39,933 nt of DNA, taken from IMG/VR virus record IMGVR_UViG_2778261217_000006, positions 1 through 39,933 of that record; one strand, 5' to 3'. Position numbers and translations under genes: made by a program. The stretch comes from a virus. Lineage: Duplodnaviria > Heunggongvirae > Uroviricota > Caudoviricetes. Position 1 is the stretch's first letter, and each line of letters starts with the position of its first letter. This document shows, one piece after another, positions 698 through 39,933 of the stretch. The notes below the pieces were generated by a model, which saw nothing but the letters and a program-made list of their open reading frames with translations, was not told the DNA's origin and searched no databases.

Positions 698-1060
698 GGG
701 GCTGATTCTGGATTCGACGGGATTTGCGAAACCCAAGGTGCATGCCGAGGGGCGGTTGGCCTCGTAAAAAGCCGCAAAAAATAGTCGCAAACGACGAAAA
801 CTACGCTTTAGCAGCTTAATAACCTGCTTAGAGCCCTCTCTCCCTAGCCTCCGCTCTTAGGACGGGGATCAAGAGAGGTCAAACCCAAAAGAGATCGCGT
901 GGAAGCCCTGCCTGGGGTTGAAGCGTTAAAACTTAATCAGGCTAGTTTGTTAGTGGCGTGTCCGTCCGCAGCTGGCAAGCGAATGTAAAGACTGACTAAG
1001 CATGTAGTACCGAGGATGTAGGAATTTCGGACGCGGGTTCAACTCCCGCCAGCTCCACCA
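698..1060 (+). ncRNA. ssrA: tmRNA (transfer-messenger RNA, SsrA)
   Basis: Starts GGGGCTGATTCTGGATTCGACGGG, contains the tag-reading-frame region (GCAAACGACGAAAACTACGCTTTAGCAGCTTAA) and ends ...GGTTCAACTCCCGCCAGCTCCACCA; 363 nt. Confidence 0.95.
1016..1060 (+). repeat. attL core: ssrA 3'-end copy of a 45-bp direct repeat
   Basis: Identical 45-mer ATGTAGGAATTTCGGACGCGGGTTCAACTCCCGCCAGCTCCACCA recurs at 34500..34544. Confidence 0.85.
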
Positions 1061-23760: not shown

Positions 23761-24600
23761 TTAGATGGCTGGGTTGATGTAATCACCCACGTCATCACCT
23801 TGTAGACTAATGTACTCAACCCGCCACTGGTCCATTCGCCGTAACGCATACAGACTGAATTCAACGTCAGGAACTGCGTTACAAGACATAAGCGCAATGA
23901 GTTCACTTTCAGACGCATCACCATGGTACGTTACAAAGAACTCTTCAATTTGTGTTGCCGCCTGCTCTGCCTCTGCTCTTGCATCCGGCCCACCATCTAT
24001 AGAATCATAGACAAGATGAATATTCAGTTCGTAAGGTACACCTTCCTCTAAATCATTGAAACGATCTTCGCCTAAATCAAAGAATACACCTATCAAATAG
24101 ACTGAATGTTTGCTAATTATCTTTGCGAGTTCTTTTTCGAATCTAAATTTCTTTGTGTCGAAAGCTCTTAGCCTACTCTCAAAAACATCAGGAAAGGCAG
24201 GTCGCCCATAGCGGGCAGCAAGCCATTGTTTTAAACCTTGCTTTTCCTCAGGGGATATTTGGCAAGTAGGGTCACATCCCACACACGTGAAACGTTCTTT
24301 ATCAATACGAAATTTGTTGTCATGTCTTAGTTCAATTGCATTTTGATTCGCGTCACGCGCTTGCTCTAAATGCAAATGCAGAACTCTGGGATGTTTAGCA
24401 CGTGCATAATTGCTGGCCCCCTTAATGAGAGGGCCAGCAATAAGCTCAACGCTGGGTTCAGAAGAGCTTTGCAAGTCACAATCATGACTGATCACGACAA
24501 CTTTAACGCCTATTTCCTCTTCGGTAAGAATACCCAAAGAAACTGCATCCTCATGCCTAAGAACCTGGCCTTGGCGCCATGCTGTAGCAATATCAACCAT
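23761..24600 (-). CDS. Hypothetical protein, cargo operon gene 3 (279 aa)
   Basis: ATG with AAGGAG upstream; 10 bp after the gene 2 stop; no family I can recognise (Cys cluster FTCVGCDPTC, acidic C-terminus). Confidence 0.7.
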   Translation of the reverse strand: MVDIATAWRQGQVLRHEDAVSLGILTEEEIGVKVVVISHDCDLQSSSEPSVELIAGPLIKGASNYARAKHPRVLHLHLEQARDANQNAIELRHDNKFRIDKERFTCVGCDPTCQISPEEKQGLKQWLAARYGRPAFPDVFESRLRAFDTKKFRFEKELAKIISKHSVYLIGVFFDLGEDRFNDLEEGVPYELNIHLVYDSIDGGPDARAEAEQAATQIEEFFVTYHGDASESELIALMSCNAVPDVEFSLYALRRMDQWRVEYISLQGDDVGDYINPAI

Positions 24601-24610
24601 AAATGACTAT

Positions 24611-25252
24611 CTACTCCTTCATTCCTGAACCAGGTATAGAAACAGACGACATCCACCCGTCAGTTGGCGTGCTTTTGCTCCCAGTTAAATTCGCTTTTAC
24701 ACCTGCAATTTTAAGCTGGCGAGCTTCATCGATTAAGAGATTCACAGACGACTTCCAGTCATCGCCTCGCTTAATCAAATCAATAATAGATAAGCCGTCA
24801 AACGCTTTCATTTTTGACATCAACTTAGCATTTTCTACTCCTGCTTTGTTAAAGCGATCGGCTAATCTACTGAGTTCAATGATGTAACCAGCTTTCCCAA
24901 TATCATCAGGCTGACTGTCACCGGATAACCATTTGTATAATGCTTGCCTAGTAATACCCAAATCTTTAGCCAGTTCTGACATTGATGGAGAAAGAGTATC
25001 CCTAACATTACTTAAATGTTCTGAAATTGTCCTGATATCAACAGGGTCATTATCTGTATCCCCATGATTTTCAAGTTTAGATAACCCAAAATGGACTTTA
25101 GGTTGTACAAAACCACGCCACTGGTTTACATCCTTCACAGAATAGCTCGCTCCTGTTCCACTCAGGAACATAGAGGTTGCAACAAATAACGCTCCAGCAA
25201 TAGGAGCTAAACCAGGAGTCCCATAGCAACTACCAGTCATGGATTGACGCAT
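24611..25252 (-). CDS. Hypothetical protein with central XRE-type helix-turn-helix, cargo operon gene 2 (213 aa)
   Basis: Start set at the ATG preceded by GGGGAGGTG (the track ORF begins at a GTG at 25279); HTH MSELAKDLGITRQALYKWLSG; hydrophobic Gly-rich N-terminal segment. Confidence 0.7.
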   Translation of the reverse strand: MRQSMTGSCYGTPGLAPIAGALFVATSMFLSGTGASYSVKDVNQWRGFVQPKVHFGLSKLENHGDTDNDPVDIRTISEHLSNVRDTLSPSMSELAKDLGITRQALYKWLSGDSQPDDIGKAGYIIELSRLADRFNKAGVENAKLMSKMKAFDGLSIIDLIKRGDDWKSSVNLLIDEARQLKIAGVKANLTGSKSTPTDGWMSSVSIPGSGMKE

Positions 25253-25269
25253 ATTACACCTCCCCGGTG

Positions 25270-26076
25270 TTATACCCACCTATTAATGGCATGTTGGGAT
25301 ACCATTTTATTAAAGCTTTCCTTTACAACACCATGTAGTGAATTGAACTGTTGCTCAATTGAATCTATTTCTGGCGGCATGTTTCCTTCAACATAATGGT
25401 CTGTATCAATAATTCCATGCCAAAGAGCCTTGTCGCTCCTGAACCGCTCAAGCATTTCAACCCCAAAGGGCAAGATATCTGGAGGAAAACTCAACTGACC
25501 AAACATCTTATGCAAACGAGTTACTAAAAAGCCAGTACTTATAACAGGACCAACATTTGTTTGGAAAACCATCTCGTTAACCGATTGTATCGGAGATAAA
25601 TCCAAATCTACACCATGTAAGCCATTGCAAAGGTACTGCTCAATCTTTTCACCCTCACTAGGTATTACGGCATCCAGATACCTCAAACCAAGTCTTGTCA
25701 AAAGGGCTGGGTTAGCATGTTCTATTACGACAGACAATCCTTCCATCAATGCTTTAAAGAACGGTTCATGTTCTTTGTAATCAGTCGTCTGGAAAGTAAT
25801 AAAATCGTTACCCAAGACAAAACCTGAAGTCTTAGTGATGTCAGACATATACCACTGCTGGACCATTTCAAAAGATGGCTGAGGCGATTCACCGGGCGTA
25901 TTAACATCAAACACCATTTGCATTGCCTCTCTTCTTTCAAAGAGTGGATAGCCCCTTAAACGCAATGCTTCCTGAATGTCATCGACATACTTTTTCATCG
26001 CCTTGATAGGCGTAAACTTAACTTGCGCCAGCACATAGTATACGGGTGCATTGGACATGCGATTGCTGTCACTCAT
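25270..26076 (-). CDS. Hypothetical protein, cargo operon gene 1 (268 aa)
   Basis: ATG preceded by AGGAGG; first gene of a co-directional trio; no recognisable P2/186 core homolog. Confidence 0.75.
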   Translation of the reverse strand: MSDSNRMSNAPVYYVLAQVKFTPIKAMKKYVDDIQEALRLRGYPLFERREAMQMVFDVNTPGESPQPSFEMVQQWYMSDITKTSGFVLGNDFITFQTTDYKEHEPFFKALMEGLSVVIEHANPALLTRLGLRYLDAVIPSEGEKIEQYLCNGLHGVDLDLSPIQSVNEMVFQTNVGPVISTGFLVTRLHKMFGQLSFPPDILPFGVEMLERFRSDKALWHGIIDTDHYVEGNMPPEIDSIEQQFNSLHGVVKESFNKMVSQHAINRWV

Positions 26077-26928: not shown

Positions 26929-27021
26929 TATAATAATCTTACTGATGTAAAACGTTTTTTTTACGTTCATCAGCCTAATATGCCTGGTATTATTAAGAGC
27001 ACGAATTGTTAACCTGCGTAA

Positions 27022-33356: not shown

Positions 33357-34382
33357 ATGACCATCAGAAAACAGCCGAACGGAAAGTGGTTATGTGAATG
33401 CTACCCAAACGGGAGAGATGGCAAACGCGTACGCAAACAATTTGCGACGAAAGGCGAAGCCATTGCGTTTGAGAATTTCACCATGGATGAGGTAAACAAG
33501 AAACCTTGGCTGGGAGAAAAGGAAGATCGGCGACAACTGTCAGAAGTGATTGAGCAATGGTATTCCCTGTACGGTCAGACACTCGCTGACCCTAAGCGAT
33601 TAATGGCTAAGTTAAAAATCATTTGTAATGGACTTGGCGATCCCATCGCTTCTGAATTGACAGCAGGTGATTTCACAAAGTACCGGGAAGCCAGATTAAA
33701 AGGTGAGGTCAAAAACGAAGATGGCGTGCTCATGTCACCGGTTAAGCCCAGAACGGTGAACCTTGAACAGCGTAACCTATCCTCAGTTTTTGGCACACTG
33801 AAAAAGCTGGGACATTGGTCTGCACCCAACCCCCTCGCCGGTCTGCCAACTTTCAAAATTGCAGAAGGTGAACTGGCGTTCCTTGCTGCTGATGAAATCA
33901 AACGCCTGCTTGACGCATGTGCTGAATCTCAAAGTCCCAGTCTGCTAATGATTGCCAAGATTTGCCTGGCTACCGGGGCAAGATGGAGCGAAGCCGAAAA
34001 CCTGCAAGGTAACCAGATATCAAAGTATCGAATTACCTATACCAAAACAAAAGGAAAGAAAAACCGAACTGTTCCTATTTCTCAGGAACTGTATGAAGAA
34101 TTACCCAAAAACAGAGGAAAGTTATTCACACCATGCCGAAAGGCTTTTGAGCGTGCGGTAAAACGAGCTGGAATTGAACTACCTGAAGGTCAATGTACCC
34201 ACGTTCTGCGCCACACTTTCGCCAGTCACTTTATGATGAACGGCGGAAACATTTTGGTATTGAGGGATATTTTAGGACACGCTGATATTAAAATGACCAT
34301 GATTTATGCCCATTTTGCACCGGATCATCTGGAAGATGCCGTTACCAAAAATCCACTTCATAACCTCAACTGGCATCGCTAA
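33357..34382 (+). CDS. int: Tyrosine integrase (P2/186 type)
   Basis: 341 aa with catalytic RHRY context (ARWSE, HVLRHTF, MIYAHF); 4 nt after cI and about 120 bp from the att repeat. Confidence 0.9.
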   Translation: MTIRKQPNGKWLCECYPNGRDGKRVRKQFATKGEAIAFENFTMDEVNKKPWLGEKEDRRQLSEVIEQWYSLYGQTLADPKRLMAKLKIICNGLGDPIASELTAGDFTKYREARLKGEVKNEDGVLMSPVKPRTVNLEQRNLSSVFGTLKKLGHWSAPNPLAGLPTFKIAEGELAFLAADEIKRLLDACAESQSPSLLMIAKICLATGARWSEAENLQGNQISKYRITYTKTKGKKNRTVPISQELYEELPKNRGKLFTPCRKAFERAVKRAGIELPEGQCTHVLRHTFASHFMMNGGNILVLRDILGHADIKMTMIYAHFAPDHLEDAVTKNPLHNLNWHR

Positions 34383-34499: not shown

Positions 34500-34544
34500 A
34501 TGTAGGAATTTCGGACGCGGGTTCAACTCCCGCCAGCTCCACCA
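34500..34544 (+). repeat. attR core: second copy of the 45-bp ssrA 3'-end repeat; also the left boundary of the next island
   Basis: Identical to 1016..1060. Confidence 0.85.
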
Positions 34545-34709
34545 CTTTTTAGTTGTTTGAAGTTCAATGAAGTCTACTAAGCCCACACAGCACAAGCTCT
34601 GCGGGCTTTTTTACGTCTATTGTCGTCCAGTGAGAATTGCTGAGAACTACGAGTTATGGCACCCTGAATGGGACCCATTAAGAAGGGTCCAAAAACCGAG
34701 GGTCCCAAA

Positions 34710-35939
34710 ATGGCAAAAATCGCTAAGAAGCTCACTGACACTGAAATCAAAAGCACCAAGCCAGCCGATAAAGAAATCAACTTGTTTGACGGTGATGGTC
34801 TGATTCTACGAATCGCTCCTTTGGCGAAAGGAGGCAAGAAAAATTGGTATTTCAGGTATGCAGTACCAGTGAGCAAGAAAAGAACCAAAATGAGCCTTGG
34901 GACATATCCTCACCTTACCCTTGCAAGAGCCAGAGCCTTACGTGATGAATATCTCTCCTTTCTGGCAAATGGTGTTGATCCCCAAATCCATAACAACGAT
35001 AAGGCGAAGGCATTAAAGAGTGCTACTGAGCACACTCTCCAAGCCGTAGCGCGGAAATGGTTAGATGAGAAGGTAAAGACATCAGGTATCTCACAAGACC
35101 ATGCAGCAGACATCTGGCGCAGCTTAGAGAGAAATGTCTTTCCCGGTCTGGGTAATGTCCCTATCAATGAGATCCGACCTAAGCTCTTAAAACAACACCT
35201 TGATCCTATTGAGCAACGAGGCGTATTGGAAACTCTACGCCGTATCATTTCACGTCTGAATGAAATCTTCCGGTGGGCAGCTACTGAAGAACTTATTGAG
35301 TTCAACCCGGCTGACAACCTTGGTCAAAGATTCAGTAAACCAAAAAAGCAAAATATGCCTGCCCTTCCCCCAAGCGAATTGCCAAGGTTTATGGAATCTT
35401 TGACGAATGCGTCAATCCGGTTGGAAACACGTATGCTAATTGAATGGCAATTGTTGACATGGGTTCGTCCGGGTGAAGCCGTTCGCGCAAGGTGGTCTGA
35501 TATTGATACAACCAACAGCATTTGGAACATTCCTGCTGATTTCATGAAAATGAAAAAGCTTCACAAAGTTCCTTTGAGTAAAGAAGCTTTGCGCATCCTT
35601 GAATTAATGAAATCAATAAGTGGGCATAGAGAATGGGTTTTCCCCAGCATAAAAGCGCCTCTTAATCATATGCATGAACAAACAGCCAACGCAGCTATCA
35701 TCCGAATGGGGTTCGGAGGCGAGCTTGTAGCTCACGGTATGCGTTCTATTGCACGAACAGCGGCAGAGGAGTCTGGTAAATTCAGAGCTGAAGTTCTTGA
35801 GGCAGCGCTTGCCCACTCGAAAAAAGATGAAATTATCGCAGCATACAATCGTGCAGAATATCTGATAGAGCGACAGAGTTTGATGCAATGGTGGAGTGAT
35901 TACGTTCAAGCTCAAAGATCAAATGCTCTGGTAGCCTAA
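34710..35939 (+). CDS. P4-type tyrosine integrase (IntA-like)
   Basis: Begins MAKIAKKLTDTEIKSTKPADKEINLFDGDGL..., the typical P4-integrase N-terminus; ATG at 34710 has GAGGG upstream (the track ORF starts at 34668). Confidence 0.85.
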   Translation: MAKIAKKLTDTEIKSTKPADKEINLFDGDGLILRIAPLAKGGKKNWYFRYAVPVSKKRTKMSLGTYPHLTLARARALRDEYLSFLANGVDPQIHNNDKAKALKSATEHTLQAVARKWLDEKVKTSGISQDHAADIWRSLERNVFPGLGNVPINEIRPKLLKQHLDPIEQRGVLETLRRIISRLNEIFRWAATEELIEFNPADNLGQRFSKPKKQNMPALPPSELPRFMESLTNASIRLETRMLIEWQLLTWVRPGEAVRARWSDIDTTNSIWNIPADFMKMKKLHKVPLSKEALRILELMKSISGHREWVFPSIKAPLNHMHEQTANAAIIRMGFGGELVAHGMRSIARTAAEESGKFRAEVLEAALAHSKKDEIIAAYNRAEYLIERQSLMQWWSDYVQAQRSNALVA

Positions 35940-35977: not shown

Positions 35978-36394
35978 ATGGAAACCCTATTCAAAGTTTT
36001 TGAAAAATTTAGTTCCAGACCACTTTTTTTTATTTTTTTCGGACTCTCACTTTGTGAATTTTTTCAGAAACAATCTGTTCTGATGAATCCATCAGCAGAT
36101 AACATCGCGAAATTATTCGCAGCCATGATATTAGTTGTTTTTTTTACTTGGGGATTTGAATGGCTAATCTTCAAGTTCAATGTAAACCTTGAACCTCATG
36201 ATCAAGGCGATATTGGACCAACAATTGGAACGGCTACTTTAGCTGTATACTTAGTTTATGCCTTTCACTTTCTCAGTGAAAATCCTGAAGCATTAAATTT
36301 AAAGTTATTAACTAACTCTGGCTTTATATACAGCACAACTCTATTATTATTCTCATTAGAATGCATGAAGCTTAGAAGACTTAAACAAAAATAA
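35978..36394 (+). CDS. Small hydrophobic membrane protein (138 aa), hypothetical
   Basis: Several predicted transmembrane stretches; AT-rich; AAGG upstream of the ATG. Confidence 0.45.
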   Translation: METLFKVFEKFSSRPLFFIFFGLSLCEFFQKQSVLMNPSADNIAKLFAAMILVVFFTWGFEWLIFKFNVNLEPHDQGDIGPTIGTATLAVYLVYAFHFLSENPEALNLKLLTNSGFIYSTTLLLFSLECMKLRRLKQK

Positions 36395-36465
36395 ACAACA
36401 TCATTGTGATGATAAATATAAAATAGGCATGGCGAAAAAAAATCACCACGCCTAAAATATAATAA

Positions 36466-38214
36466 TTATGGTAGCATCATTGATACATAATCCACACCAA
36501 TCCTTGAGCTATACTGAGACGCTATAGCCTGATATCTTTCTGCATAACCAGTTCTCAGTTGAGATTTAAGTTTGAGTCGGACAGGAACATTTTGCACGTT
36601 GCCATCCATATTACTTAAAAACACGGCAGAAATAATATTTTTTTCTTCGCCATCAACTGTTGTTCCATGATTCAACACCACCATATAATCAACAACAGGA
36701 AGCGTTTTATCCCCTTCGAAAATAGAGAGATATTTTCTTTGATTTTTATGCATTACATATATATATTTCGAATGTTCAGCAAATGGCAATGCTTTACTCT
36801 GACTGGCGTTAAAAAGCTCCAGAACTTTAATGAGCCTGTGCGGACTTAATCTTACATGGTGAGGGTCGTTACCCTGAGTAGGAACCAAATCACATGCCGC
36901 AGATACACATAAATACCATTTGTTCGACTCTGTATCAAAGAAAATAGTGCCAGTAGAAATATGACCATCTTCAAAATTCTTTGAAGACAAATTCATATTT
37001 AAAGCATGATACATTTCGTGATAAGTATCATTATTTGATGGCAGATCCATTTTTGAAGAGCAATATTGGAGCAATGCAGCAACTCCGCTGTTAGCGTATT
37101 CATTTGAATAGCTATCAAAAACACTTTTGATAAATTCATCCAGCGTATTATTATTTTTAAGTCTTTGATAAAGCTCTTCTGATAAATTACCAAATACAAA
37201 GTCAATATTTCTACATCTAATATCAGGCGAGTCTGATTTTAATATCTCATTTAACCACGCAGCTTGACCGTAATGATCGTTAGCCAAATGATTTACAAAA
37301 GATAAAGCCTCAGCTTCGATTGCATTCTGAATTTCAGATTTTATTAACTGATAATAAGATGGTTTCCATTCAATGAGAGAATCATTGAGAGTTTGCCAAA
37401 TCCTATCTCCATCGTTTTCATGATCATCTTGAACCTTATGAAATAGGGAGACAAAGATATTACCACATTGAATCCATTTTACTCCGCTTTCATCACCCCG
37501 AATGACATTGCCAGATGTGTTGCTAGAAATAATTGCATTTCTAGACACAGCATATTCTGCAATCATTTTTGCAATGAAGTTTTTATCCTTTTGATCCTCC
37601 AACACAGCATCATCATGTATTAATCTTTTAATTCTTCTACAAGGCTTACTGTCTTTAATATAGGCTATTGTTTCATCTCTTGTGAGAGCTTTATTACCAT
37701 TATCATTTAAGTTCGGTAATACAACGTCTTCCCAATAACTTTGGACATCTTCATTATCGTAGTCAATGATCAAGCTGTTGATATCCAGAGCACCTTTGAG
37801 AGTCGATGATATCTGCATCCAAACCGTTTCTAAATTCTCTCTAGTATATATTACAATCATATTTAAATGATCGGAGTCTTTCAAATCTTGTAATAGTTTA
37901 AGTGTTTTATCAGGTGCATTATTATCAAGATGATAATCTACAATAATAAGATCTGATTTTCTAATCCGATCCACATCGAAATTAACAGAACCATTGTCAA
38001 CATCACAAATCATATTTTTAGATTGAAAAAAGCTCTCAAGAGTAGCGGCTCGTTTAGATGAGTCAATTTTGTTGTAGTCTAAATCAACTTCGTTATTCAA
38101 CGCCCTGATTGATTCAGAATACGTCAGAAAATCGTCATCAATCATGACAACGGAACGAATTGCATTTTCGCAGAAAGTTTTCTGGACAAGAGAATTATAA
38201 TTTGCCACTGTCAT
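36466..38214 (-). CDS. Receiver (REC)-like domain protein with large uncharacterised C-terminal domain
   Basis: N-terminus has receiver-like landmarks (VVMIDDD, DLIIVDYHL, NMIVIYT); about 440 aa C-terminal region unrecognised; start set at the ATG overlapping the kinase stop (TAATATG); the track ORF extends to 38232. Confidence 0.65.
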   Translation of the reverse strand: MTVANYNSLVQKTFCENAIRSVVMIDDDFLTYSESIRALNNEVDLDYNKIDSSKRAATLESFFQSKNMICDVDNGSVNFDVDRIRKSDLIIVDYHLDNNAPDKTLKLLQDLKDSDHLNMIVIYTRENLETVWMQISSTLKGALDINSLIIDYDNEDVQSYWEDVVLPNLNDNGNKALTRDETIAYIKDSKPCRRIKRLIHDDAVLEDQKDKNFIAKMIAEYAVSRNAIISSNTSGNVIRGDESGVKWIQCGNIFVSLFHKVQDDHENDGDRIWQTLNDSLIEWKPSYYQLIKSEIQNAIEAEALSFVNHLANDHYGQAAWLNEILKSDSPDIRCRNIDFVFGNLSEELYQRLKNNNTLDEFIKSVFDSYSNEYANSGVAALLQYCSSKMDLPSNNDTYHEMYHALNMNLSSKNFEDGHISTGTIFFDTESNKWYLCVSAACDLVPTQGNDPHHVRLSPHRLIKVLELFNASQSKALPFAEHSKYIYVMHKNQRKYLSIFEGDKTLPVVDYMVVLNHGTTVDGEEKNIISAVFLSNMDGNVQNVPVRLKLKSQLRTGYAERYQAIASQYSSRIGVDYVSMMLP

Positions 38215-38215
38215 A

Positions 38216-39052
38216 TTAGAACTCCACTCCATTGAACTGGATCACAAAATTAGCGCCATCTTTTATTAAATAGTTATCGCCTTCATCAGGTTCTGAATAC
38301 CATATTTTATGATGTGCAACAGCAAGGTTTTCTCGACATAGATACAGACCTACCCCATGTCCATTTGCTCTTTTGCTATAAAATAGTTCAAATAGTCGCG
38401 GGATATCATCGGTATCAATTGCCGGACCAGAATTTGCTATGATAACCAAAGAATTCACAAAACCAATCTTTATGAGCCTATTATTTGACAGACTGACCCA
38501 ATACATTGCATTGTTGATAATATTAGTAAAAACAGGATAGATCCTTGATGGTATATCTGTTATTGCGATTTGCTTAAACTCTTCACTAAATTCAATAGTT
38601 ATTCGTTGCCGTTCGAAACGCTCCCCAAAGAACTTCAGGACATAATCCATGATATTTTTTCCAGTTATTCTCTGCCTGGATTGATAACCTGATATTTTCA
38701 AAGGTGATAAGAAACGTATTTGTTGAGTAAGCGATCTGTGAGCATTTAACGCCAATGAAAAACCAGGGTGTTCTTTTACAGAAGTAGGAAGAGAGTTTAG
38801 TCCTCTGGTTACCATAGAATCCATTTCTTCAAGTTCATGAGATATTATCTCAACACTAATACCTAACTGTGCAAGCGCGTTTAAACTTTTAGCTTTTTCT
38901 TCAAAATATGAGCGTTCTTCTTCAGATAATGAGAATGCTGAATCTAAGTTTATACCTTCAAATAATCTATCGAGACCTTTTATTATTGATTGATATTTGA
39001 AAGTTAGGGTATCAACTGACTCAACATATAAACTATCGAGCAAATTAAACAC
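38216..39052 (-). CDS. Histidine-kinase-like protein (HisKA H-box plus HATPase_c N, G1, G2 boxes); frame is open upstream to 39226 with no start codon
   Basis: H-box ISHELEEM, N-box NIINNAMYW, G-boxes IANSGPAID and GHGVGLYL; the track start is a GTG; the frame continues upstream into the overlap with the next ORF. Confidence 0.7.
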   Translation of the reverse strand: MFNLLDSLYVESVDTLTFKYQSIIKGLDRLFEGINLDSAFSLSEEERSYFEEKAKSLNALAQLGISVEIISHELEEMDSMVTRGLNSLPTSVKEHPGFSLALNAHRSLTQQIRFLSPLKISGYQSRQRITGKNIMDYVLKFFGERFERQRITIEFSEEFKQIAITDIPSRIYPVFTNIINNAMYWVSLSNNRLIKIGFVNSLVIIANSGPAIDTDDIPRLFELFYSKRANGHGVGLYLCRENLAVAHHKIWYSEPDEGDNYLIKDGANFVIQFNGVEF

Positions 39053-39195
39053 ATTTTCAATTTGTGAATCATTATCTATTGAATCAACAACTGATATAGT
39101 TTTAGCATAATAATCACTTCGATCAACCTTTATTTCATCGGCCCATTTTTTTAAAAGAGAATGTATCTTCTCCTCTATCGTGTTATTAAACTTAG

Positions 39196-39933
39196 TTAGT
39201 TTAGAATTAATAATACCTTGATTTTTTCAAGGTGATTTTTCGCTGACAATGAAGGCTCAAGTTTATTTAATTCAGAATCAAGTTTATTAATTGCTAACTT
39301 CATTTGTAGAATATACGCAGAGAACTCATTAAATTTATCTCTGTAGTCTCTATATTTCTCTTCATACATTCCAAGTTTTGGAGGTTTGATAGGCGTTTTA
39401 ATTTCACTGCGCAACGCATCTAAGTTTGTAAGATCACTGTCTATAATTTTAAGATAGTTTAAATCTAACGAACCATCAGTTTTATCAAGCTTAGTTTTCA
39501 GCCTTTTAACAGCCTCCAAGGAAGCATCAAGAACTGGTGTCTGATTCTTCAAAGCTTCTGAAAAACTTTTTTGTGTTGATTTTCGAGCTTGTTGTTGAGC
39601 AGATTTTCTTAACTCTTTTTCACGCTTAACTTGTTCTAAAAGCTCTTTACGGTCATCAGAACGTGAACCAAAAAATCTATCAGCAAGTTCAGTTAACAAA
39701 TTAGATATAATAGTTTTCAGTTCTCTTGCAGCCTGGTTTCTTATGAATCCCTCTCTCCCCGACTTATCTTTCAGCTCTTTATTACTGGATTGAGTAATTC
39801 CAATATAACCAAAAATCCTTCTATTAGACCAATAATATCGCCCTGCATTCCATGAACGTCTTTCTTCTATCTGGAAGAAATCATTATCTACTCGACCATA
39901 AGGTAATACTCTCAAGCTATCCCTAAAAATCAT
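39196..39933 (-). CDS. Coiled-coil-rich ORF, 5' end beyond the window; probably the N-terminal part of the kinase gene separated by a frameshift
   Basis: Ends 30 nt inside the open upstream extension of the kinase frame; an A6 run lies at the frame junction. Confidence 0.55.
   Translation of the reverse strand: MIFRDSLRVLPYGRVDNDFFQIEERRSWNAGRYYWSNRRIFGYIGITQSSNKELKDKSGREGFIRNQAARELKTIISNLLTELADRFFGSRSDDRKELLEQVKREKELRKSAQQQARKSTQKSFSEALKNQTPVLDASLEAVKRLKTKLDKTDGSLDLNYLKIIDSDLTNLDALRSEIKTPIKPPKLGMYEEKYRDYRDKFNEFSAYILQMKLAINKLDSELNKLEPSLSAKNHLEKIKVLLILN

What the first reader, a model, noticed from the sequence alone, without database searches (positions are those of the whole stretch)
39196..39229. 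Frameshift at an A6 homopolymer splits what looks like one long sensor-kinase gene
The kinase reading frame is open, with no ATG/GTG/TTG, from its annotated GTG start at 39052 up to a stop at 39227..39229, while the upstream coiled-coil ORF ends at 39196 in the adjacent frame. The 30-nt overlap contains GAAAAAATC on the coding strand. One extra or missing A would fuse the two into a single protein of well over 580 aa with an N-terminal sensor-like region and C-terminal kinase core. This is either a sequencing or assembly indel, a recent inactivating mutation, or slippage-based phase variation of the module.
Basis: seen in the sequence. Interest (0 to 1): 0.6.

Follow-up and report, generated by a model that had tools for sequence, protein, structure and literature searches.

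The report
Single-base frameshift in decaying kinase gene
One missing A in a run of seven splits an already truncated, horizontally acquired sensor-kinase gene of E. coli into two reading frames; this is an ordinary gene-killing mutation (or a sequencing slip), not a regulatory device.

Summary
On the minus strand a 245-codon ORF (39933..39196) and the kinase frame (open from TGA 39229..39227 to stop 38216) overlap at an A6 run (39222..39227).

Of 561 complete E. coli genomes carrying this locus, 559 differ from the window in the 81 nt around the run, and nearly all sampled have one extra base (A7). That gives a single 572-codon ORF (WP_000577254.1). Only 2 have A6, and RefSeq already annotates one of them as "ATP-binding protein, frameshifted". 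Residues just after the run (N238, Q239) are invariant in homologues down to 63% identity, so this is one gene.

- The "intact" 572-aa gene is itself a remnant. Full-length orthologues are 988-994 aa: a paraMORC GHKL ATPase, a coiled coil, an HEF_HK domain and HATPase_c. They sit in a C5-methylase / kinase / Response_reg_2 operon on an ssrA island. E. coli has lost the methylase and the first ~375 codons.
- The remnant carries many independent lesions in other strains: a nonsense mutation, an IS1 insertion, a 10-nt deletion, and indels in a second A7 run.

A6 recurs on several haplotypes in about 0.4-0.8% of carriers. Verdict: non-programmed A7->A6 slippage deletion, or a base-calling error, in a decaying gene. 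Phase variation and programmed frameshifting are not supported. Low interest.

The parts
39222..39227 (-). A6 homopolymer (T6 on the + strand). This is the site of the 1-nt deletion relative to the in-frame A7 allele.
   Evidence: the window, L001 and L003 have A6; L002 and L022-L024, L026-L027, L029, L031 have A7; the full-length genes L005-L007 have A7; 2 of 561 complete genomes match the window exactly over the 81 nt around the run.
39196..39933 (-). 5' fragment ORF of the kinase remnant: 237 native codons (M1..K237 of the 572-aa form), then 8 out-of-frame codons (IKVLLILN) and TAA.
   Evidence: This exact 245-aa product is on record on 105 contigs and in 154 index blocks.
38216..39223 (-). 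3' part of the same gene in the adjacent frame: codons N238..F572 plus the stop. It encodes the HEF_HK DHp domain (H366 in SHELEE) and the HATPase_c catalytic domain.
   Evidence: translation; HEF_HK 26.1 bits against cut-off 24.1; HATPase_c 44.9 bits; invariant H366 and the N and G boxes.
39050..39052 (-). GTG that formally starts the 278-aa ORF call. It is not a genuine start.
   Evidence: No Shine-Dalgarno sequence in the 30 nt upstream. The codons upstream of it are conserved as coding sequence in all homologues.
39215..39233 (-). 7-bp inverted repeat ACCTTGA / TCAAGGT with the A-run in its loop.
   Evidence: The Salmonella lineage has a similar repeat, CTTGAT-AAAA-ATCAAG. Any role in slippage is inferred only.
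39146..39152 (-). Second A7 run in the same gene (nt 777-783 from the ATG). It is intact in the window, but indel alleles occur at it in other assemblies.
   Evidence: T7 on the + strand; delA at 783 in L004 and L020; +TA at 783 in L029.
36466..38214 (-). Partner gene: a 582-aa Response_reg_2 receiver protein. Its ATG lies 1 nt after the kinase stop, with GGAG 8-12 nt upstream. It is intact in the window.
35978..36394 (+). 138-aa hypothetical protein, found next to the receiver gene in every island copy examined.
   Evidence: No family assignment.
34668..35939 (+). Integrase of the ssrA island that carries the module.
   Evidence: Arm-DNA-bind_3, Phage_int_M, Phage_integrase. A 45-nt copy of the ssrA 3' end lies at 34500..34544.

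Best explanation
The window carries a genuine, non-programmed 1-nt deletion (A7 -> A6) of the kind made by slipped-strand mispairing during replication. It lies in the coding sequence of a horizontally acquired, AT-rich gene remnant.

The ancestral gene encodes a 988-aa cytoplasmic kinase: a paraMORC-type GHKL ATPase, a coiled coil, an HEF_HK phospho-acceptor domain and an HATPase_c domain. It is the middle gene of a C5 DNA methylase / kinase / Response_reg_2 receiver-protein operon on an ssrA-integrated mobilisable island. In the E. coli lineage the methylase and the first ~375 codons of the kinase were deleted. An IS3 sits at the junction in most strains. This leaves a 572-codon ORF.

In this window the loss of one A ends translation after 237 native plus 8 aberrant codons, so the DHp and catalytic domains are not made. 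The GTG-started 278-aa ORF is a gene-caller artefact.

Shown: the deletion, the single-gene ancestry, the prior truncation, and the many independent lesions in other strains. Inferred: the slippage mechanism, that the allele is real rather than a base-calling error in this assembly, and loss of function with possible polarity on the downstream receiver gene.
For: - **A7 is the in-frame state.** 559 of 561 complete E. coli genomes differ from the window in the 81 nt around the run, nearly all sampled by one extra base, and the loci read directly have A7. Full-length 99%-identical genes from other Enterobacterales also have A7.
- **One gene.** Coding conservation runs across the junction.
- **Already annotated.** RefSeq marks the identical allele in strain OkiPb01712 as a frameshifted pseudogene.
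- **The gene is a remnant.** Homology to the 988-aa gene starts only at about codon 376, 122 nt upstream of the ATG.
- **Decay elsewhere in the gene.** Other strains carry Q67* (C199T), an IS1 insertion with a 9-bp overlap of the flanks at nt 752-760, a 10-nt deletion, +TA and delA in the second A7 run, delT at 1173, other 5' truncations, and an 'internal stop' in GPEC1201.
- **A6 recurs.** It is found on several distinct gabT-glaH flank haplotypes, both with and without IS3. L015 (A6) is identical at all 148 informative flank sites to A7 genomes of O26, O111 and O103.
- **A6 is probably real in some lineages.** One IS3-less A6 neighbourhood (L014) stands for at least 8 near-identical places in draft assemblies.
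- **The window looks like a clean assembly.** Against its closest relative, the only uncompensated homopolymer differences in about 35 kb are this run and one apparently intergenic T8/T7.
- **Frequency.** 2 of 561 complete genomes, and 154 against 18,949 index blocks.
Against: - No reads are available, so a consensus error in this assembly cannot be excluded.
- Several A6 (and A5) assemblies look error-prone. ESBL 15 and ecoli019 have frameshifted neighbouring genes. L012, L017, L018 and L020 have additional 1-nt gaps in the island.
- The complete O104:H21 genome CFSAN002236 has the one-base-longer (in-frame) version, while a protein record named for O104:H21 CFSAN002237 is the A6 product. If the two isolates are closely related (not checked here), this hints at error or very recent change.
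Confidence: 0.7

Rival explanations
1. The A6 is a sequencing or assembly error: a homopolymer under-call in the consensus. The source strain really has A7 and an uninterrupted 572-codon ORF.
For: A7 -> A6 is a typical long-read or 454 homopolymer error. One of the two A6 complete genomes (ESBL 15) and the A5 genome (ecoli019) have several other 'frameshifted' genes nearby. Several A6 assemblies with multi-Mb contigs have extra 1-nt gaps in the 5.2-kb island. Two O104:H21 records differ at the run.
Against: The window shows no other coding homopolymer discrepancy over about 35 kb aligned to its nearest relative, and none in the 5.2-kb island block. The same allele is present in draft assemblies with moderate contig sizes and no other gaps (L013, L014, L019, L021). 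One near-identical neighbourhood recurs at least 8 times.
Confidence: 0.22
2. The A-tract is a contingency (phase-variation) switch. It toggles the kinase remnant, and through polarity or coupling perhaps the receiver protein, between ON (A7) and OFF (A6).
For: A6 has arisen repeatedly on different haplotypes, with and without IS3; all four combinations of run length and IS3 presence exist only about 830 bp apart. The tract sits in the loop of a 7-bp inverted repeat. Restriction-modification-linked genes are classic phase-variable loci in other bacteria (general knowledge).
Against: - OFF alleles are rare (about 0.4-0.8%).
- By general knowledge, seven A's are short for a homopolymer switch in a mismatch-repair-proficient enterobacterium.
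- The tract is not conserved; the Salmonella lineage reads GATAAAAAT.
- The window holds 51 runs of 6 nt or more, and this AT-rich gene alone has five, so the run is not special.
- The second A7 run also shows indel alleles, and the gene is hit by nonsense, IS and deletion lesions that cannot revert.
- The ON form already lacks its sensor domain and its methylase partner.
Confidence: 0.05
3. Programmed recoding: a -1 ribosomal frameshift or transcriptional slippage on the A-run yields the full-length kinase from the A6 template.
For: A -1 shift of a Lys-tRNA on A-AAA-A would give exactly the wild-type sequence ...EKNQG. The 92 nt downstream fold somewhat better than shuffled sequences (z = -2.9).
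Against: In the 0 frame the site reads CTT GAA AAA ATC, which is not an X XXY YYZ heptamer. The predicted hairpin starts about 45 nt downstream, far beyond the usual 5-9-nt spacer. Six A's are, by general knowledge, below the length at which RNA polymerase slips efficiently. About 99.6% of carriers, and all orthologues examined, need no recoding.
Confidence: 0.02

Closest known systems
The same locus in RefSeq (E. coli OkiPb01712, ACZ45U_RS09590: 'ATP-binding protein, frameshifted'; intact form WP_000577254.1)
   Same: Identical 3,534-nt sequence including A6, and the same neighbours (receiver gene, 138-aa hypothetical, integrase, ssrA).
   Different: In that strain no prophage lies between ssrA and the island. 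In the window a P2-like prophage does. So the source strain is a different one and is not in the complete-genome collection.
HEF_HK / Response_reg_2 two-component-like module linked to C5 methylases and paraMORC ATPases (Bellieny-Rabelo et al. 2021, PMC8011034)
   Same: The Pfam domains PF19191 and PF19192 are both found. The two genes are adjacent and appear translationally coupled. Full-length orthologues have the N-terminal HATPase_c_3 domain and an upstream, overlapping C5 methylase.
   Different: The E. coli copy has lost the methylase and the GHKL sensor domain, and in this window it is also frameshifted. The family's function has never been tested experimentally.
Ambrosia anti-phage system of Pseudomonas (bioRxiv 10.1101/2025.09.30.679545)
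   Same: It combines a DNA methylase, an HSP90-like/histidine-kinase ATPase and a receiver protein in one cluster, with a type IV HNH nuclease. The Salmonella islands carry a ScoMcrA-SBD + HNH_2 gene next to the module.
Phase-variable restriction-modification genes (phasevarions) with simple-sequence tracts
   Same: A homopolymer inside the coding sequence of an R-M-associated gene, with length variants in the population.
   Different: The tract is short and not conserved, OFF alleles are rare, and the gene is already a remnant carrying irreversible lesions in other strains.
dnaX / IS3-type programmed -1 frameshifting
   Same: An A-rich site at the junction of two overlapping frames.
   Different: There is no slippery heptamer in frame and no correctly spaced stimulator, and orthologues are in frame.

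Membership tests
HEF_HK / Response_reg_2 module (PMC8011034) | HEF_HK (PF19191) DHp domain with the conserved His-Glu | tested here: met
   26.1 bits against the 24.1 cut-off on the repaired 572-aa sequence. H366-E367 are invariant in 10 homologues. In the window this region lies downstream of the frameshift.
HEF_HK / Response_reg_2 module (PMC8011034) | C-terminal HATPase_c catalytic domain | tested here: met
   PF02518, 44.9 bits. N and G box residues are invariant.
HEF_HK / Response_reg_2 module (PMC8011034) | Adjacent gene encoding a Response_reg_2 (PF19192) protein with the receiver catalytic residues | tested here: met
HEF_HK / Response_reg_2 module (PMC8011034) | N-terminal paraMORC-type HATPase_c_3 domain (present in 83% of the family) | tested here: not met
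   Absent from the E. coli copy; homology begins at about codon 376. Present in the 988-aa orthologue (PF13589, 37.1 bits).
HEF_HK / Response_reg_2 module (PMC8011034) | Upstream C5 cytosine DNA methylase | tested here: not met
   In E. coli the upstream neighbour is IS3 or an amylase-gene fragment. The methylase is present, and overlaps the kinase start, in L005, L010 and L011 (PF00145, 200 bits).
Simple-sequence phase-variable (contingency) locus | A hypermutable tract, conserved among orthologues, with frequent ON/OFF alleles | tested here: not met
   The tract is A7 in the ON state. OFF alleles are about 0.4-0.8%. The tract is interrupted in the Salmonella lineage. The switching rate itself was not measurable.
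Simple-sequence phase-variable (contingency) locus | Independent recurrence of length variants within lineages | tested here: met
   A6 occurs on several flank haplotypes, with and without IS3. A5 was also seen. Part of this may be sequencing error.
Programmed -1 ribosomal frameshift | X XXY YYZ slippery heptamer in the 0 frame, with a stimulatory structure 5-9 nt downstream | tested here: not met
   The 0 frame reads CTT GAA AAA ATC. The only notable hairpin starts about 45 nt downstream.
Programmed -1 ribosomal frameshift | The frameshift requirement is conserved in orthologues | tested here: not met
   559 of 561 E. coli genomes differ from the window at the run, and the loci read directly, like all orthologues examined, are in frame.
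Ambrosia defence system | Sequence homology of the kinase and receiver proteins to AbrB and AbrC | not testable with these tools
Ambrosia defence system | Five-gene content: XRE, N6-adenine methylase, HATPase kinase, REC-wHTH, type IV HNH | tested here: not met
   Full-length islands have a C5 methylase, no XRE gene was called, and the receiver output is not a winged helix. An HNH_2 gene is present only in the Salmonella variant.
Known anti-phage systems in PADLOC-DB v2 | A significant match of the kinase or receiver protein to any model | tested here: not met
   The best E-values were 0.026 and 0.0028, to unrelated models.

The most novel reading that the evidence does not exclude
Probability: 0.07. 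Interest if true: 0.55.

Novelty: already known. Interest (0 to 1): 0.15.

Why it matters
As a frameshift it matters little. It is one more pseudogenising indel, and RefSeq already flags it.

The context is more useful:
- **Annotation.** The widespread E. coli "ATP-binding protein" of 572 aa is itself a truncated relic. Its abundance appears to have led to a wrong start call on an intact 998-codon Salmonella gene, and possibly on the other 572-aa records in other genera.
- **An untested candidate.** The intact three-gene operon (C5 methylase, paraMORC-kinase, receiver protein with an unknown output) is an experimentally untested candidate defence module. It resembles the recently validated Ambrosia system. 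Intact copies at 99% identity exist and could be tested.

Tried and rejected
- **PADLOC, NCBIfam and PDB sequence searches** gave no informative match for the kinase remnant, the receiver protein or the 138-aa protein.
- **Natural short form of the kinase.** I suspected the 572-aa proteins annotated in Salmonella, Klebsiella, Yersinia and others at 83% identity were a genuine short isoform. I rejected this: in L008 the ORF is open for the full ~998 codons, and the unannotated 1.25 kb encodes the GHKL domain.
- **Failed look-ups.** P0052 was not on record. P0008 is a rare variant, so it was useless as a denominator. I used the exact receiver protein instead.
- **IS3 as the sole cause of the truncation.** This is not fully supported. 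IS3-less copies share the same truncation point, with a 12-nt filler ATCCTTAGAGAT in place of IS3.
- **Downstream frameshift stimulator.** A modest hairpin exists but is wrongly placed.

Full report
**1. The observation**

Reading the minus strand, an ORF starts at the window edge (ATG 39933) and ends at TAA 39198..39196 (245 codons). The adjacent frame is open from TGA 39229..39227 to the stop at 38216. It has no ATG, GTG or TTG before GTG 39052, which the ORF lister takes as the start of a 278-aa ORF. The overlap contains GAAAAAATC, and the A6 run is 39222..39227.

**2. Is it one gene?**

Yes.
- A megablast of 36400..39933 against 5,426 complete E. coli genomes found the locus in 574. One genome (OkiPb01712) matches over exactly 3,534 nt. 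The other listed 100%-identity hits match over 3,535 nt.
- A three-way alignment places the single extra base in the A run: A7 against A6.
- An 81-nt query centred on the run splits the carriers into 2 with the window's version and 559 that differ. Nearly all sampled rows of the 559 span 82 nt. One spans 80 nt and proved to be A5.
- With A7 the two frames fuse into a 572-codon ORF, annotated as WP_000577254.1 "ATP-binding protein".
- In OkiPb01712, RefSeq annotates the same sequence as a pseudogene, "frameshifted".
- In an alignment of ten homologues (63-99% identity), the residues encoded just after the run (N238, Q239, N243, L246) are invariant.
- The Salmonella lineage (83% identity) reads GAT AAA AAT CAA straight through.
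- There is no Shine-Dalgarno sequence before GTG 39052.

One correction: only +1 A restores the frame. A5 runs into TAA after five more codons, as read directly from the sequence and as seen in isolate ecoli019.

**3. What the gene is**

- The repaired protein has an HEF_HK DHp domain (PF19191, 26.1 bits against cut-off 24.1) and an HATPase_c domain.
- The gene immediately downstream (36466..38214) encodes a 582-aa Response_reg_2 protein (PF19192, 109 bits). Its ATG lies 1 nt after the kinase stop, with GGAG upstream.
- These two Pfam families were defined together by Bellieny-Rabelo et al. 2021 (PMC8011034). They describe a predicted cytoplasmic two-component-like pair, 91.6% linked. It usually has an N-terminal paraMORC-type HATPase_c_3 domain on the kinase and a C5 cytosine methylase upstream. 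No experiment has been done on it.
- The pair lies on an AT-rich island (33.6-34.3% GC against 49.6% for the window) with its own integrase, next to ssrA.

**4. The 'intact' E. coli gene is itself a remnant**

- Homologue search shows full-length proteins of 988-994 aa with PF13589 at the N-terminus. Some are 99% identical over the shared part and come from Serratia, Klebsiella and Salmonella.
- In those genomes the operon is C5 methylase (overlapping the kinase start by 20 nt), then the 988-aa kinase, then the receiver protein. The same 138-aa gene, integrase and smpB follow, and a relaxase lies upstream.
- DNA homology between the E. coli locus and the full island begins only 122 nt upstream of the E. 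coli ATG, at about codon 376.
- Upstream of that point is IS3 in most strains. In some strains there is a 12-nt filler, directly abutting an amylase-gene fragment.

So E. coli has lost the methylase and the GHKL sensor domain. The 572-aa ORF is what is left from the first in-frame ATG.

**5. The remnant is decaying in many ways**

The exact 278-aa ORF product is indexed in 1,556 blocks of the assembly collection. The loci behind it carry different lesions, with coordinates counted from the ATG:
- A7->A6;
- A5;
- C199T (Q67*);
- an IS1 insertion, with a 9-bp overlap of the flanks at nt 752-760;
- a 10-nt deletion at 737-746;
- +TA or delA in the second A7 run (nt 777-783);
- delT at 1173;
- further 5' truncations at nt 242 and 448.

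The complete genome closest to the window in prophage context (GPEC1201) has A7 but an "internal stop".

As a rough denominator, the exact receiver protein is indexed in 18,949 blocks. The exact A6 product (245 aa) is in 154 blocks. That is about 0.8%, in line with 2 of 561 complete genomes.

**6. Real mutation or error?**

Evidence that A6 recurs and is real in some lineages:
- A6 occurs with IS3 (L001, L013, L016 and others) and without it (L014, L019, L030). So does A7: with IS3 in L002, L033, L034 and L036, and without in L035. All four combinations exist within about 830 bp.
- A6 sits on several distinct gabT-glaH flank haplotypes. L015 (A6) is identical at all 148 informative flank sites to A7 genomes of O26, O111 and O103. 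The length change has therefore arisen, or been mis-called, repeatedly.
- Draft assemblies L013, L014, L019 and L021 have no other gaps. One IS3-less A6 neighbourhood stands for at least 8 places, which suggests vertical inheritance of a real allele.

Evidence that some A6 records are errors:
- ESBL 15 and ecoli019 have several frameshifted neighbouring genes.
- L012, L017, L018 and L020 have extra 1-nt gaps in the island.

The window itself looks clean. Against GPEC1201, the only uncompensated homopolymer differences in about 35 kb are this run and an apparently intergenic T8/T7 at 26955.

I therefore favour a real deletion (0.70) over an assembly error (0.22). Only reads can settle it.

**7. 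Phase variation and recoding**

The case for a switch is recurrence, plus the tract's position in the loop of a 7-bp inverted repeat. Against it:
- the ON tract is only seven A's, and OFF alleles are rare;
- the tract is interrupted in the Salmonella lineage;
- the window has 51 runs of 6 nt or more, and this gene alone has five;
- the other A7 run varies too, and irreversible lesions are common;
- the ON product lacks its sensor and its methylase partner.

For recoding, the 0 frame (CTT GAA AAA ATC) is not a slippery heptamer. The only notable downstream hairpin (z = -2.9) starts about 45 nt away. Orthologues need no recoding.

**8. How the intact module probably works (inference)**

By analogy with the domain logic set out in PMC8011034 and with Ambrosia, the likely scheme is as follows. 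Ambrosia is an experimentally validated Pseudomonas system that combines a methylase, an HSP90-like kinase, a receiver protein and a type IV HNH nuclease.
- The GHKL/paraMORC domain senses a DNA- or infection-related cue.
- The kinase autophosphorylates on the HEF_HK histidine.
- The phosphate passes to D93 of the receiver protein, which then activates its output.

In this window the module cannot work as designed. The methylase and sensor are gone and the kinase core is untranslated. Only the receiver protein remains intact.

**9. Verdict**

- The cause is an ordinary A7->A6 deletion, or its sequencing equivalent, in a gene remnant that is decaying across E. coli.
- It is already annotated as such in RefSeq.
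- Interest is low.
- The by-products worth keeping are an apparent annotation artefact (572-aa start calls copied onto intact orthologues) and the pointer to an untested methylase / paraMORC-kinase / receiver operon.

Noticed in passing
window 23761-26076 (minus strand): Three ORFs (279, 222 and 268 aa; only a weak HTH_3 hit on the middle one) sit in the P2-like prophage between the portal gene and the replication endonuclease, a typical cargo position. They have no PADLOC hit and no alignment to the nearest related prophage. They may be uncharacterised defence cargo.
   Followed up: partly
L008 3990-5265 (Salmonella Bareilly) and proteins P0052, P0059, P0062-P0064, P0068, P0070: 572-aa 'ATP-binding protein' or 'histidine kinase' records occur in other genera at about 83% identity. 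The one checked (L008) is a start-site artefact: the ORF is open for about 998 codons and the unannotated 1.25 kb encodes the GHKL domain. The abundant truncated E. coli protein may have propagated the short start. 'Group 2' (no HATPase_c_3) in PMC8011034 may be partly inflated by this.
   Followed up: partly
L014 9860-9885, L002 2620-3880 (junction upstream of the window end): Some E. coli copies lack the IS3 at the truncation point. They carry a 12-nt filler, ATCCTTAGAGAT, between the amylase-gene fragment and codon ~376 of the kinase. The order of events (IS3-mediated deletion then IS3 loss, or the reverse) is unresolved.
   Followed up: partly
window 39215-39233: The A-run lies in the loop of a perfect 7-bp inverted repeat (ACCTTGA...TCAAGGT). 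A similar palindrome exists in the Salmonella orthologue. Whether it promotes slippage is unknown.
   Followed up: no
window 1016-1060 and 34500-34544: The last 45 nt of ssrA are duplicated exactly. They bracket a P2-like prophage (about 1.1-34.4 kb, integrase at 33357-34382) inserted between ssrA and the older island. This is tandem occupancy of the ssrA site.
   Followed up: yes
window 36466-37431 (receiver protein residues 262-582): The output region of the Response_reg_2 protein, reported in the literature as having no known domain, models confidently as a helical bundle plus a beta domain. The best PDB matches are CcdB/MazF/Kid toxins, at weak Z (5.0-5.9) and without sequence support.
   Followed up: partly
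window 26955: A T8 run here corresponds to T7 in the closest related genome (GPEC1201). It lies just outside the replication endonuclease gene, apparently intergenic. It is the only other uncompensated homopolymer difference in about 35 kb.
   Followed up: no
window 36487: A 3-nt in-frame indel near the 3' end of the receiver gene relative to GPEC1201 (582 against 583 aa).
   Followed up: no
L008 9775-10650, L011 9836-10711: In the Salmonella islands a gene with ScoMcrA-type DNA-binding and HNH_2 domains (a type IV restriction-like nuclease) sits just beyond the 138-aa gene. This echoes the HNH component of the Ambrosia system. It is absent from the E. coli island.
   Followed up: no
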